DNA from: the human T2T-CHM13v2.0 reference genome, Homo sapiens
Length of the DNA: 64,000 bases
Reading direction: 5' to 3' (one strand)
NCBI RefSeq assembly: GCF_009914755.1
Contig: NC_060930.1
Shown here piece by piece: positions 822-4,596 of the stretch. Numbering within the stretch: position 1 is the stretch's first letter; the number at the start of each line of letters is the position of its first letter. Position numbers and translations under genes: made by a program. The notes beneath the pieces were generated by a model. It had not been told where the DNA came from, made no database searches, and saw only the letters and a program-made list of their open reading frames with translations.

Positions 822-3559
822 TCAATTCCGACCTATGAGTGAGAATATGCAGTGTTTGGTTTTTTGTTCTTGTGATAGTTTCCTGAGAATTATGATTTCC
901 AATTTCATCCATGTCCCTACAAAGGACATGAACTCATCATTTTTTATAGCTGCATAGTATTCCATGGTGTATATGTGCCACATTTTCTTAATCCAGTCTA
1001 TCACTGTTGGACATTTGGGTTGGTTCCAAGTCTTTGCTACTGTGAATAGTGCCGCAATAAACATACGTGTGCATGTGTCTTTATAGCAGCATGATTTATA
1101 GTCCTTTGGGTATATACCCAATAATGGGATGGCTGGGTCAAATGGTATTTCTAGTTCTAGATCCCTGAGGAATAGCCACACTGACTTCCACAATGGTTGA
1201 ACTAGTTTACAGTCCCACCAACAGTGTAAAAGTGTTCCTATTTCCACACATCGTCTCCAGCACCTGTTGTTTCCTGACTTTTTAATGATTGCCATTGTAA
1301 CTGGTGTGAGATGGTATCTCATTGTGGTTTTGATTTGCATTTCTCTGATGGCCAGTGATGGTGAGCATTTTTTCATGTGTTTTTTGGTTGCATAAATGTC
1401 GTCTTTTGAGAAGTGACTGTTCATGTCCTTCGTCCACTTTTTGATGGGGTTGTTTGTTTTTTTCTTGTAAATTTGTTGGAGTTCATTGTAGATTCTGGAT
1501 ATTAGCCCTTTGTCAGATGAGTAGGTTGCGAAAATTTTCTCCCATTTTCTAGGTTGCCTGTTCACTCTGATGGTAGTTTCTTTTGCTGTGCAGAAGCTCT
1601 TTAGTTTAATTAGATCCCATTTGTCAATTTTGGCTATTGTTGCCATTGCTTTTGGTGTTTTAGACATGAAGTCCTTGCCCGTGCCTGTATCCTGAATGGT
1701 ATTGCCTAGGTTTTCTTCTAGAGTTTTTATGGTTTTAGGTCTAACGTTTAAGTCTTTGATCCATCTTGAATTGATTTTTGTATAAGGTGTAAGGAAGGGA
1801 TCCAGTTTCAGCTTTCTACATATGGCTAGCCAGTTTTCCCAGCACCATTTATTAAATAGGGAATCCTTTCCCCATTGCTTGTTTTTCTCAGGTTTGTCAA
1901 AGATCAGATAGTTGTAGATATGCGGCATTATTTCTGAGGGCTCTGTTCTGTTCCATTGATCTGTATCTCTGTTTTGGTACCAGTACCATGCTGTTTTGGT
2001 TACTGTAGCCTTGTAGTAGAGTTTGAAGTCAGGTAGTGTGATGCCTCCAGCTTTGTTCTTTTGGCTTAGGATTGACTTGGCGATGCGGGCTCTTTTTTGG
2101 TTCCATATGAACTTTAAGGTAGTTTTTTCCAATTCTGTGAAGAAAGTAATTGGTAGCTTGATGGGGATGGCACTGAATCTATAAATTACCATGGGCAGTA
2201 TGGCCATTTTCACGATATTGATTCTTCCTACCCATGAGCATGGAATGTTCTTCCATTTGTTTGTATCCTCTTATTTCATTGAGCAGTGGTTTGTAGTTCT
2301 CCTTGAAGAGGTCCTTCACGTCCCTTGTAAGTTGGATTCCTAGGTATTTTATTCTCTTTGAAGCAATTGTGAATGGGAGTTCACTCATGATTTGGCTCTC
2401 TGTTTGTCTGTTATTGGTGTATAAGAATGCTTGTGATTTTTGTACATTGATTTTGTATCCTGAGACTTTGCTGAAGTTGCTTATCAGCTTAAGGAGATTT
2501 TGGGCGGACACAATGGGGTTTTCTAGATATACAATCATGTCATCTGCAAACAGGGACAATTTGACTTCCTCTTTTCCTAATTGAATACCCTTTATTTCCT
2601 TCTCCTGCCTAATTGCCCTGGCCAGAACTTCCAACACTATGTTGAATAGGAGTGGTGAGAGAGGGCATCTCTGTCTTGTGCCAGTTTTCAAAGGGAATGC
2701 TTCCAGTTTTTGCCCATTCAGTATGATATTGGCTGTGGGTTTCTCATAGATAGCTCTTATTATTTTGAGATATGTCCCATCAATACCTAATTTATTGAGA
2801 GTTTTTAGCATGAAGGGTTGTTGAATTTTGTCAAAGGCCTTTTCTGCATCTATTGAGATAATCATGTGGTTTTTGTCTTTGGTTCTGTTTATATGCTGGG
2901 TTACATTTATTGATTTGCATATATTGAACCAGCCTTGCATCCCAGGGATGAAGCCCACTTGATCATGGTGGATAAGCTTTTTGATGTGCTGCTGGATTTG
3001 GTTTGCCGTATTTTATTGAGGATTTTTGCATCAATGTTCATCAAGGATATTGGTCTAAAATTCTCTTTTTTGGTTGTGTCTCTGCCCAGCTTTGGTATCA
3101 GGATGATGCTGGCCTCATAAAATGAGTTAGGGAGGATTCCCTCTTTTTCTATTGATTGGAATAGTTTCAGAAGGAATGGTGCCAGTTCCTCCTTGTACCT
3201 CTGGTAGAATTCGGCTGTGAATCCATCTGGTCCTGGACTCTTTTTGATTGGTAAGCTATTGATTATTGCCACAATTTCAGAGGCTGTTATTGGTCTATTC
3301 AGAGATTCAACTTCTTCCTGGTTTAGTCTTGGGAGGGTGTATGTGTCGAGGAATTTATCCATTTCTTCTAGATTTTCTAGTTTATTTGCGTAGAGGTGTT
3401 TGTAGTATTCTCTGATGGTAGTTTGTATTTCTGTGGGATCAGTGGTGATATCCCCTTTATCATTTTTTATTGCATCTATTTGATTCTTCACTCTTTTCTT
3501 CTTTATTAGTCTTGCTAGTGGTCTATCAATTTTGTTGACCCTTTCAAAAAACCAGCTCC
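822..3559 (-). pseudogene. L1 ORF2 from about residue 363 to the C-terminus (PIP box QTTIREYY, Z region, RT with FADD, C-terminal domain); no endonuclease; two frameshifts
   Basis: ORF track 2907..3842 ([14 protein letters not shown]...), 2179..2958 ([12 protein letters not shown]...LFADDMIVY) and 822..2213. Frameshifts lie near 3008 and 2270. Confidence 0.95.
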
Positions 3560-4596
3560 AGTGGCAGCCAAGATGGCTGAATAGGAACAGCTCCGGTCTA
3601 CAGCTCCCAGTGTGAGCGACGCAGAAGACGGGTGATTTCTGCATTTCCATCTGAGGTACCAGGTTCATCTGACTAGGGAGTGCCAGACAGTGGGCGCAGG
3701 ACAGTGGGTGCAGCGCACCGTGCACAAGCCGAAGCAGGGCGAGGCATTGCCTCACTCGGGAAGCGCAAGGGGTCAGGGAGTTCCCTTTCCTAGTCAAAGA
3801 AAGGGGTGACAGACGGCACCTGGAAAATCGGGTCACTCCCACCCTAATACTGCGCTTTTACGGGCTTAAACAATGGCACACCAAGAGATTATATCCTGCA
3901 CCTGGCTCGGAGGGTCCTATGCCCATGGAGTCTCCCTGATTGCTATCACAGCAGTGTGAGATCAAACTGCAAGGCTGCAGCGAGGCTGGGGGAGGGGCGC
4001 CCACCATTGCCCACGCTTGCTTAGGTAAACAAAGCAGCCTGGAAGCTTGAACTGGGTGGAACCCACCACAGCTCAAGAAGGCCTGCCTGCCTCTGTAGGC
4101 TCCACCTCTGGGGGCAGGGCACAGACAAACAAAAAGACAGCAGTAACCTCTGCAGACTTAAATGTCCCTGTCTGACAGCTTTGAAGAGAGCAGTGGTTCT
4201 CCCAGCACCAGCACACAGCTGGAGATCTGAGAACGGGCAGACTGCCTCCTCAAGTGGGTCCCTGACCCCTGACCCCTGAGCAGGCTAACTGGGAGGCACC
4301 CCCCAGTAGGGGCAGACTGACACCTCACATGGCCAGGTACTCCTCTGAGACAAAACTTCCAGAGGAATGACCAGACAGCAGCATTCACGGTTCGCGGAAA
4401 TCCACTGTTCTGCAGCCACTGTGGCTGATACCCAGGCAAACAGGGTCTGAAATGGACCTCTAGCAAACTCCAACAGACCTGCAGCTGAGGGTTCTGTCTG
4501 TTAGAAGGAAAACTAACAAACAGAAAGGGCATCCACACCAAAAACCCATCTGTACATCACCATCATCAAAGACCAAAAGTAGATAAAACCACAAAG
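3560..4596 (+). promoter_or_regulatory. Complete L1 5'UTR (internal sense promoter plus antisense promoter), with YY1 site and the 129-bp ZNF93-associated segment
   Basis: Begins GCAGCCAAGATGGCTGAATAGGAACAGCTCCGG and is ~1037 bp long. It retains the segment ~4344-4471 that is absent from L1PA2/L1HS. Confidence 0.9.
3858..4007 (-). pseudogene. L1 antisense ORF0, truncated to 49 aa by TAA
   Basis: MVGAPPPASLQPCSLISHCCDSNQGDSMGIGPSEPGAGYNLLV matches the ORF0 N-terminus. ATG is at 4007-4005 and the stop at 3860-3858. Confidence 0.85.

What the first reader, a model, noticed from the sequence alone, without database searches (positions are those of the whole stretch)
822..4596. Twin-priming inversion built an in-frame ORF0-ORF2(delta-EN) fusion downstream of the L1 antisense promoter
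Seen: on the minus strand the ORF0 ATG (4007) reads ...[19 protein letters not shown]... and the same frame stays open across the 3560/3559 junction into ORF2 ([18 protein letters not shown]). ORFs 3858..4076 and 2907..3842 share a frame and are separated by one TAA plus five codons. The TAA looks like a 3-nt deletion of TCG GAA. Known: the primate L1 5'UTR has an antisense promoter driving ORF0, and ORF2 is normally translated inefficiently behind ORF1. Inference: at insertion this locus could have encoded a ~1060-aa protein of ORF0, PIP box, RT and C-terminal domain without endonuclease. It would have had its own promoter, start codon and L1 poly(A) signal. 5'-inverted L1s may therefore be an overlooked route to ORF1-independent reverse transcriptase expression. 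The present copy is disabled (1 stop, 2 frameshifts), and an in-frame junction has about a 1-in-3 chance of arising randomly.
Basis: partly seen in the sequence, partly recalled or inferred. Interest (0 to 1): 0.8.

Follow-up and report, generated by a model that had tools for sequence, protein, structure and literature searches.

The report
Dead inverted L1 with chance in-frame junction
This is an ordinary, decayed primate L1 retrotransposon whose front end was flipped during insertion, so that the small antisense ORF0 frame happens to run in frame into the reverse-transcriptase gene; nothing shows that this fused frame was ever used.

Summary
On the minus strand an ATG at 4007 opens the L1 ORF0 frame. 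It meets a TAA at 3860-3858, then stays open across the inversion junction (about 3560/3559) into ORF2 from residue 364. ORF2 carries two frameshifts (about 3008 and 2273) and ends at 822.

The locus is one L1 insertion with a 5' inversion and about 1.6 kb missing between the two pieces. A 12-bp target-site duplication bounds it, and it sits inside an older L1.

The gap that creates the TAA is in 0 of 29 related copies, and the 1-nt gap in 0 of 27. The 2-nt gap is a recurrent hot spot.

In this long-5'UTR type the ORF0 frame has no stop before the L1 5' end: 149 codons. Short-type copies stop after 102 codons, and one copy stops after 71.

So an intact fused frame of about 1060 codons at insertion is possible. 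However, an in-frame junction is a 1-in-3 event. ORF2 decay looks neutral (pN/pS 0.68; 2.0 stops expected, none seen, P=0.13). No transcript is annotated here.

Verdict: a known kind of element, a curiosity, low interest.

The parts
5175..5186 (-). Upstream copy of the 12-bp target-site duplication. Its last 2 bases could equally be L1, which would be 2 nt of microhomology at the second priming site.
   Evidence: the longest shared string between the two insertion edges is 12 nt, at 5186-5175 and 586-575.
4597..5174 (+). Inverted L1 ORF1 fragment, about the first 193 codons. It is broken by stops at 4879-4881 and 5104-5106 and has a 2-residue gap.
   Evidence: plus-strand ORFs 4489..4881 and 4882..5106. 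(Tnp_22_trimer, E=2.8e-30). (alignment to ORF1p, PDB 2ykp).
3560..4596 (+). Inverted L1 5'UTR of the long type, which keeps the roughly 129-bp stretch lost in L1PA3 and younger. It reaches to within a few bases of the L1 5' end. The antisense-promoter region (first 600 bp of the 5'UTR) corresponds to about 3560-4160.
   Evidence: 93-94% identity to 29 other 5'UTRs; homology ends at 3563-3560. (5' end to ORF1 is 1026 nt here, about 1022 in 23 long copies and about 894 in 6 short copies). PMC7110667 and PMC4908685 passages.
3858..4007 (-). ORF0 start codon, 49 codons, then TAA at 3860-3858.
   Evidence: (ATG kept in 30 of 30 copies). (the 3-nt gap at the TAA is in 0 of 29 other copies).
3563..3857 (-). 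Continuation of the ORF0 frame through the antisense 5'UTR to the L1 5' end. It is open here.
   Evidence: In 19 of 23 long-type copies ATG to the L1 end is 447 nt; 11 of 23 are still open to the end.
3560..3562 (-). Junction: 3 bases that match neither partner. They are either filler or mutated bases.
   Evidence: alignment of the 5' ends. (ORF2 match begins with the next codon).
822..3559 (-). Non-inverted L1 ORF2 from residue 364 to its stop codon. It keeps the tower lock, PIP box, RT (FADD present), thumb, wrist and C-terminal domain. It has no in-frame stop, a 1-nt gap near 3008 and a 2-nt gap near 2273.
   Evidence: (RVT_1 in about 3009-2329). Domain limits come from PMC10830420 passages.
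587..821 (-). L1 3'UTR, with AATAAA at 616-611 and a short A-rich tail. The A-run is 592-582, of which 5 bases belong to the TSD.
575..586 (-). Downstream copy of the target-site duplication.
12..574 (-). Host: the 3' part of an older L1 that the insertion split. Its other part lies at 5187-5895.
   Evidence: Flank 5895-5203 aligns to young-element ORF2 positions 2081-1396 (78% identity). Flank 586-12 aligns to 1371-776 (75%). The two flanks are therefore contiguous across the empty site.

Best explanation
A single L1 RNA of a long-5'UTR primate subfamily (L1PA3-long or older; perhaps 10-20 million years old, a rough estimate) inserted on the minus strand into an older L1 by target-primed reverse transcription with a second, internal priming event (twin priming).

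The first cDNA, primed at the poly(A) tail, stopped at ORF2 codon about 363. The second, primed on the upstream overhang inside ORF1 near codon 193, ran to within a few bases of the RNA 5' end. Joining the two left the 5'UTR and ORF1 fragment inverted and about 1.6 kb of L1 missing (the rest of ORF1, the spacer, and the endonuclease plus half of the tower).

The inverted 5'UTR points its antisense promoter and ORF0 start towards the sense ORF2. In this L1 type the ORF0 frame has no stop before the element's 5' end. The junction fell by chance (1 in 3) in the ORF2 frame.

The copy has since decayed neutrally: one stop and two frameshifts in the fused frame, and two stops in the ORF1 fragment. 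It is a dead repeat with no demonstrated function.

Shown: the anatomy, the frames, and which breaks are private. Inferred: the order of priming events, the age, and neutrality.
For: **Anatomy**
- 12-bp TSD at both edges, AATAAA and an A-tail.
- The host older L1 is contiguous across the empty site.
- ORF1 domain on the plus strand, RVT_1 on the minus strand.
- ORF2 match starts at S364.
- The 5'UTR homology to 29 other copies ends at 3563-3560, i.e. essentially at the L1 5' end.
- Twin priming is described as giving two inverted fragments of one L1 within TSDs, with an internal deletion (PMC2837659 passages; PMC10760644 passages).

**Frame**
- One search shows the continuous frame.
- ATG to the L1 5' end is 447 nt in 19 of 23 long-type copies, and 11 of 23 are still open.

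**Neutral decay**
- 33 strictly private substitutions in 910 ORF2 codons: 9 synonymous and 24 non-synonymous, pN/pS 0.68 on small counts.
- 46 differences from the commonest base. The 29 other copies carry 72 stops for 1648 differences. That predicts 2.0 stops here against 0 seen, P(0)=0.13.
- Copies with similar terminal branches carry 1-3 stops and 1-5 frameshifts.
- The ORF1 fragment has 2 stops.
- The supplied annotation lists no gene within 100 kb.
Against: - Zero in-frame stops in 910 ORF2 codons is on the low side (P 0.13-0.20), and pN/pS is below 1. A short period of constraint cannot be excluded with counts this small.
- The internal deletion (about 1.6 kb) is large, and only 2 nt of possible microhomology are seen at the outer priming site. 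The twin-priming assignment therefore rests on architecture, not on a mechanistic signature.
- No expression data of any kind could be consulted, so 'never used' is an absence of evidence.
Confidence: 0.8

Rival explanations
1. At insertion the locus carried an unbroken frame of about 1060 codons: ORF0 (149 codons) fused to ORF2 residues 364-1275. It was transcribed from the L1 antisense promoter, ended at the L1 poly(A) signal, and was translated into an endonuclease-less reverse transcriptase independent of ORF1. It was later lost by mutation.
For: - The frame is continuous.
- The TAA-creating gap is in 0 of 29 related copies, and the 1-nt gap in 0 of 27.
- The 2-nt gap is absent from 13 of 13 independently chosen full-length copies. 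It is scattered on the tree among those that have it, which points to a recurrent change and not a subfamily state.
- The ORF0 frame of this L1 type is ancestrally open to the L1 end.
- The ATG has a purine at -3, G at +4 and no upstream ATG within 190 nt.
- Antisense-promoter activity of L1PA2-8 lies in the first 600 bp of the 5'UTR (PMC4908685 passages).
- ORF2p core lacking residues 302-363 or 302-389 keeps RT activity in vitro (PMC10830420 passages).
Against: - It cannot be shown that any of the three breaks arose after insertion; no orthologues were available. Nothing forces ORF0 to be intact in a source element.
- A protein starting at residue 364 also lacks the tower baseplate (254-300) that anchors to the fingers, a state not tested in PMC10830420.
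- The 149-residue N-terminal extension is untested sequence.
- No sign of selection. No annotated transcript.
- The long-5'UTR type carries the ZNF93 target stretch (PMC7110667 passages), which points to silencing.
Confidence: 0.12
2. The arrangement is not one insertion event. Either two independent L1 insertions landed head to head, or a full-length insertion was later inverted and partly deleted by rearrangement.
For: - The missing 1.6 kb is larger than the small deletions usually pictured for twin priming.
- Head-to-head L1s from separate events do occur. Locus L030 shows an antisense 5' end abutting the sense ORF1 of an older L1 at 86% identity.
Against: - A perfect 12-bp duplication bounds the composite exactly, and the host L1 is contiguous once one copy and the insert are removed.
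- A 5'UTR-ORF1 fragment without a 3' end or poly(A) is not a product of ordinary target-primed insertion.
- The inverted piece lies 5' of the non-inverted piece in L1 coordinates, as twin priming predicts.
- Both pieces find their best matches among the same young primate L1 families: 93-94% in the CpG-rich 5'UTR and up to 97% in ORF2.
Confidence: 0.04

Closest known systems
5'-inverted L1 insertions made by twin priming (Ostertag and Kazazian 2001). The original paper was not held. Described here from passages of PMC2837659 and PMC10760644.
   Same: Two pieces of one L1 in opposite orientation inside one target-site duplication. The poly(A) is on the non-inverted piece, the inverted piece comes from further 5' in the element, and L1 sequence is missing at the join.
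   Different: The inverted piece here reaches essentially the very 5' end of the L1, so it carries the whole bidirectional promoter region. The internal deletion is large, about 1.6 kb.
ORF0 and ORF0-exon fusion transcripts (Denli et al. 2015). The paper was not held. Known here only through passages of PMC4908685, PMC7746726, PMC10760644 and PMC10619931.
   Same: The same antisense ATG (L1 position about 451-452) below the antisense promoter. The concept of ORF0 being extended by downstream sequence is the same.
   Different: The published ORF0 is 71 aa, and fusions arise by splicing from ORF0 donor sites to host exons. Here the frame of the long-5'UTR type runs 149 codons to the L1 end without a stop. 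It would continue by plain read-through into another part of the same L1, not into a host exon. Whether Denli et al. describe the longer frame in older subfamilies could not be checked.
Recombinant ORF2p core and tower-deletion constructs (Baldwin et al., PMC10830420; passages read).
   Same: Endonuclease-less ORF2p fragments containing the PIP helix, RT, thumb and wrist are active reverse transcriptases in vitro. Deleting residues 302-363 does not abolish activity. The junction here falls at residue 364.
   Different: Those constructs keep the baseplate (254-300) and end at 1061. The hypothetical product here lacks the baseplate, carries a 149-residue unrelated N-terminus and keeps the C-terminal domain. 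The present copy is frameshifted.

Membership tests
Twin-priming (5'-inverted) L1 insertion | Two fragments of the same L1 in opposite orientation | tested here: met
   Plus strand 3560-5174 is 5'UTR plus ORF1. Minus strand 3559-587 is ORF2 from residue 364, the 3'UTR and the tail.
Twin-priming (5'-inverted) L1 insertion | One target-site duplication bounding the composite, and a poly(A) on the non-inverted piece | tested here: met
   12-bp duplication at 5186-5175 and 586-575, an A-run at 592-582, and AATAAA at 616; the host L1 is contiguous across the empty site.
Twin-priming (5'-inverted) L1 insertion | The inverted piece comes from 5' of the non-inverted piece, with a deletion or duplication at the join | tested here: met
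   The inverted piece ends at ORF1 codon about 193. The non-inverted piece starts at ORF2 residue 364. About 1.6 kb is missing; that size uses recalled L1 lengths (338-codon ORF1, 63-nt spacer).
Twin-priming (5'-inverted) L1 insertion | Microhomology between the target overhang and the internal priming site | tested here: inconclusive
   Only 2 nt (the last two bases of the upstream TSD copy) can be read either as target or as L1. At the inner junction, 3 bases match neither partner.
L1 ORF0 (as published, 71 aa) | Antisense ATG at L1 position about 451-452 with a good initiation context, below the antisense promoter | tested here: met
   The ATG at 4007-4005 is 447 nt from the L1 end at 3560, plus a few missing 5' bases. 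It is conserved in 30 of 30 copies. Context and absence of upstream ATGs. Position 451: PMC10619931 passages.
L1 ORF0 (as published, 71 aa) | A 71-residue open frame ending inside the 5'UTR | tested here: not met
   Here the frame stops after 49 codons at a private gap. In related long-type copies it has no stop for 149 codons. Only the short-type copy L021 stops after 71.
Functional L1 ORF2p reverse transcriptase | RT domain with its catalytic motif | tested here: met
   RVT_1 at E=2.8e-35. FADD is present in the 2179-3012 piece.
Functional L1 ORF2p reverse transcriptase | Uninterrupted reading frame including the endonuclease | tested here: not met
   Two frameshifts. The match to ORF2p starts at residue 364, so residues 1-363 are absent.
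Expressed ORF0 fusion gene | A transcript and protein spanning the junction | not testable with these tools
The supplied annotation lists no gene within 100 kb.

The most novel reading that the evidence does not exclude
Old long-5'UTR L1 subfamilies had an ORF0 frame with no stop inside the element. Every 5'-inverted insertion that kept the full 5'UTR would then place a promoter, a good start codon and a 149-codon leader directly upstream of whatever L1 segment followed. One in three of those joined to ORF2 would have been born as a self-contained, ORF1-independent, endonuclease-less reverse transcriptase gene. This locus would be one such birth, possibly active for a time in ape ancestors.
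Probability: 0.07. Interest if true: 0.5.

Novelty: new member of a known kind. Interest (0 to 1): 0.15.

Why it matters
As it stands it matters little. It is one more 5'-inverted, decayed L1 in a gene desert, and the in-frame junction is what one such junction in three would show.

The idea behind it can be tested from existing repeat annotation and long-read data. The question is whether inversions that retain the L1 5'UTR put the antisense promoter and ORF0 in front of sense ORF2.

This work adds a useful constraint. Read-through from ORF0 is only possible in long-5'UTR subfamilies, because the frame ends inside the element in the short-5'UTR copies examined, after 71 codons in the one that matches the published ORF0 length. 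The route is therefore unlikely to supply reverse transcriptase from young, still intact human L1s.

Tried and rejected
1. **The 2-nt frameshift as inherited from the source.** 20 of 29 copies found with the ORF2 query share it. I rejected it as a subfamily state for three reasons:
   - That search is seeded on rare words, which is an ascertainment bias.
   - 13 of 13 full-length copies chosen by their 5'UTR have the two extra bases. In that sample of 20, 4 loci were cut off before the site and 3 gave no match.
   - The carriers are scattered over a comb-like tree (at least 4 changes) and are of two sequence kinds.
2. **A fixed-phase stop count on majority columns**. It gave more than 20 spurious stops per copy because of that same site. 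I redid it with the real copy L032 as the coordinate row.
3. **Selection on the fused frame.** No significant signal.
4. **Other inverted 5'UTR-to-ORF2 joins.** Among 29 upstream flanks, 0 showed the arrangement. One (L030) abuts the sense ORF1 of an older L1, and one (L028) abuts an older L1 in the other orientation. This sample is far too small for a frame census.
6. **Sources that were unavailable.** Denli 2015 and Ostertag and Kazazian 2001 are not held.
7. **Literature.** Two full-text searches combined twin priming and antisense promoter with ORF0 and inverted (any 3 of the 4 terms) or with ORF2 and chimeric. From the titles and abstract openings listed, none dealt with ORF0-ORF2 fusion through inversion. 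I read passages of only three of the listed papers. Paywalled papers and supplements were not seen.
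Full report
**What is in the sequence**

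Reading the minus strand from 5600 to 400 and listing stop-to-stop frames gives this order:
- an older L1;
- a 12-nt string (5186-5175);
- the reverse complement of an L1 ORF1 start and of an L1 5'UTR (5174-3560);
- L1 ORF2 in sense from 3559 to a TGA at 824-822;
- the L1 3'UTR with AATAAA at 616 and a short A-run;
- the same 12-nt string again (586-575);
- the continuation of the older L1.

Several calls confirm the parts:
- Pfam finds the ORF1 trimerisation domain on the plus strand (4882-5106, E=2.8e-30) and RVT_1 on the minus strand (2179-3012 piece, E=2.8e-35).
- The residues just after the junction align to human ORF2p from S364 (PDB 8uw3, E=1.4e-111).
- The ORF1 fragment aligns to ORF1p (PDB 2ykp).
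- The two 12-nt strings are the longest shared string between the two edges.
- Flank 5895-5203 aligns to ORF2 positions equivalent to 2081-1396 of the young element. Flank 586-12 aligns to 1371-776, at 78% and 75% identity. The host is therefore one older L1 split by a single insertion.

**The observation**

Translating from the minus-strand ATG at 4007 gives 49 codons, then TAA at 3860-3858. The same frame then runs open through the rest of the antisense 5'UTR, across 3560/3559, and into ORF2 as far as about 3010.

The middle ORF2 piece (3012-2179) is in another frame. The last piece (2270-822) is back in the first frame, because the two frameshifts are gaps of 1 nt and 2 nt.

No in-frame stop occurs in any of the 910 ORF2 codons scored.

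One refinement: bases 3562-3560 match neither the 5' ends of related L1s nor ORF2. The junction is therefore defined only to within 3 nt.

**How it arose**

The architecture is that described for twin priming: two inverted fragments of one L1 inside one target-site duplication, with an internal deletion (PMC2837659 passages; PMC10760644 passages). The original paper was not held.
- The inverted piece runs from ORF1 codon about 193 to within a few bases of the L1 5' end.
- The non-inverted piece starts at ORF2 residue 364.
- About 1.6 kb is missing. This size uses recalled L1 lengths.
- Only 2 nt of possible microhomology are seen at the outer priming site.

Two separate insertions or a later rearrangement are much less likely. 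The duplication bounds the composite exactly, and a 5'UTR-ORF1 fragment without a 3' end is not an ordinary insertion product.

**Which L1, and how old**

A search of the window's own genome with the ORF0 region found 5942 candidates, of which 40 were scored and 29 other loci were kept. All were 93-94% identical.

The distance from the 5' end to ORF1 is 1026 nt in the window. It is about 1022 nt in 23 copies and about 894 nt in 6 copies. The difference matches the 129-bp deletion that arose in L1PA3 and its descendants (PMC7110667 passages). The window's element is therefore of the older, long-5'UTR type.

Its ORF2 is up to 97% identical to other copies. Its own divergence is 1.2% by strictly private changes, 1.7% from the commonest base, and 2.3% as a tree terminal branch. 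That suggests very roughly 10-20 million years. The rate used is recalled, so this is a rough figure.

**Are the breaks old or private?**

*The TAA.* It lies at a 3-nt gap that none of the 29 other copies has.

*The 1-nt gap near 3008.* It is absent from all 27 copies that cover it.

*The 2-nt gap near 2273.* It first looked inherited, because 20 of 29 copies found with the ORF2 query share it. Three things argue against that:
- The search is seeded on words that are rare in the genome, which enriches for exactly such variants.
- I fetched 251 nt around the site from 20 full-length copies chosen only by their 5'UTR. All 13 in which the site was covered carry the two extra bases. Four were cut off before the site and three did not match.
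- The carriers are scattered over a comb-like tree (at least 4 changes) and fall into two sequence kinds.

It is a recurrent slippage site. None of the three breaks is therefore a subfamily state. Whether each arose before or after insertion cannot be decided without orthologues.

**The ORF0 frame**

The ATG is kept in 30 of 30 copies. The frame then differs by 5'UTR type:

| Copies | ATG to L1 5' end | State of the ORF0 frame |
|---|---|---|
| Long type, 19 of 23 | 447 nt (149 codons) | 11 of 23 still open to or beyond the L1 end; stops in the others recur at two codons (25 and 85) |
| Short type, all 6 | one shared 1-nt gap | ends after 102 codons in 3 copies; 2 stop earlier, at codon 25 or 85 |
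| L021 (one of the 6 short copies) | a further 1-nt gap | ends after 71 codons |

The 71-codon length is the published length of ORF0 (PMC4908685 passages).

Two consequences follow. Read-through fusion is also not available to the short-5'UTR copies examined.

The start has G at -3 and +4, and no ATG lies in the 190 nt upstream. L1PA2-8 antisense transcripts start within the first 600 bp of the 5'UTR (PMC4908685 passages), which is about 3560-4160 here.

**Would the product be an enzyme?**

By the published domain map, residue 364 lies at the end of the tower helices (PMC10830420 passages). The tower is 239-440, made up of the baseplate (254-300), helices (301-370), lock (374-382) and PIP helix (404-419).
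- The hypothetical product would keep the lock, PIP box (Q408-Y415 by the numbering), RT with FADD, thumb, wrist and C-terminal domain.
- It would lack the endonuclease and the baseplate.
- ORF2p core without residues 302-363 or 302-389 keeps RT activity. No construct without the baseplate is reported in the passages read.

**Any sign that it mattered?**
- Of 33 strictly private substitutions in ORF2, 9 are synonymous and 24 are not. That gives pN/pS 0.68, with about 6.7 synonymous expected under neutrality.
- The 29 other copies carry 72 stops for 1648 differences from the commonest base. That predicts 2.0 stops for the window's 46 differences. None is seen, P=0.13. The codon-based estimate is 1.6 stops, P=0.20.
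- Copies of similar branch length carry 1-3 stops and 1-5 frameshifts.
- The ORF1 fragment has two stops.

This is compatible with neutral decay. The supplied annotation shows no gene within 100 kb. No expression data could be consulted.

**Literature**

Two full-text searches combined twin priming and antisense promoter with ORF0 and inverted (any 3 of the 4 terms) or with ORF2 and chimeric. Judged from the listed titles and abstract openings, plus passages read in three of the listed papers, none described ORF0-ORF2 fusion through inversion. Denli et al. 2015 could not be read, so I cannot say whether the longer ORF0 forms are in print.

**Verdict**

An intact fused frame at insertion is possible but unproven. 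Its in-frame state is a 1-in-3 outcome at a single locus. Nothing indicates expression or selection. It is an ordinary member of a known class of L1 insertions, with a neat but unsupported hypothesis attached.

Noticed in passing
window 4007-3560 (minus); loci L002-L030: The ORF0 frame differs by L1 5'UTR type. Long-type copies have 149 codons with no ancestral stop before the L1 5' end. The six short-type copies share a 1-nt gap that ends the frame after 102 codons. One short-type copy (L021) has a second 1-nt gap that gives the published 71 codons. Whether this stepwise shortening is already described could not be checked.
   Followed up: partly
window about 2273; loci L035-L054: The same 2-nt gap in ORF2 recurs in 20 of 29 copies retrieved by a rare-word search, in two sequence kinds and scattered over the tree. 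It is absent from 13 of 13 copies chosen independently. This looks like a slippage hot spot in an A/AG-rich run.
   Followed up: partly
L030 (flank beyond the L1 5' end, first 580 nt): The antisense 5' end of a full-length long-type L1 abuts the sense ORF1 of another, older L1 (86% identity to the window's ORF1). This is a head-to-head pair, apparently from separate events. Its ORF0 frame is open past the L1 end.
   Followed up: no
L050 and L051 (both on contig C15): Two ORF2 copies share all 7 frameshifts and differ by terminal branches of only about 0.003. They are probably a segmental duplication and not separate insertions.
   Followed up: no
window 12-574 and 5187-5895 (minus): The host of the insertion is an older L1 ORF2/3' region, 75-78% identical to the young element and on the same strand. 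Downstream of the young insert, the minus strand therefore continues into a second, older ORF2 C-terminal region.
   Followed up: partly
window 4597-5174 (plus): The inverted ORF1 fragment has two in-frame stops (4879-4881 and 5104-5106) and a 2-residue gap relative to solved ORF1p. The four-times-longer ORF2 part has no stops.
   Followed up: partly
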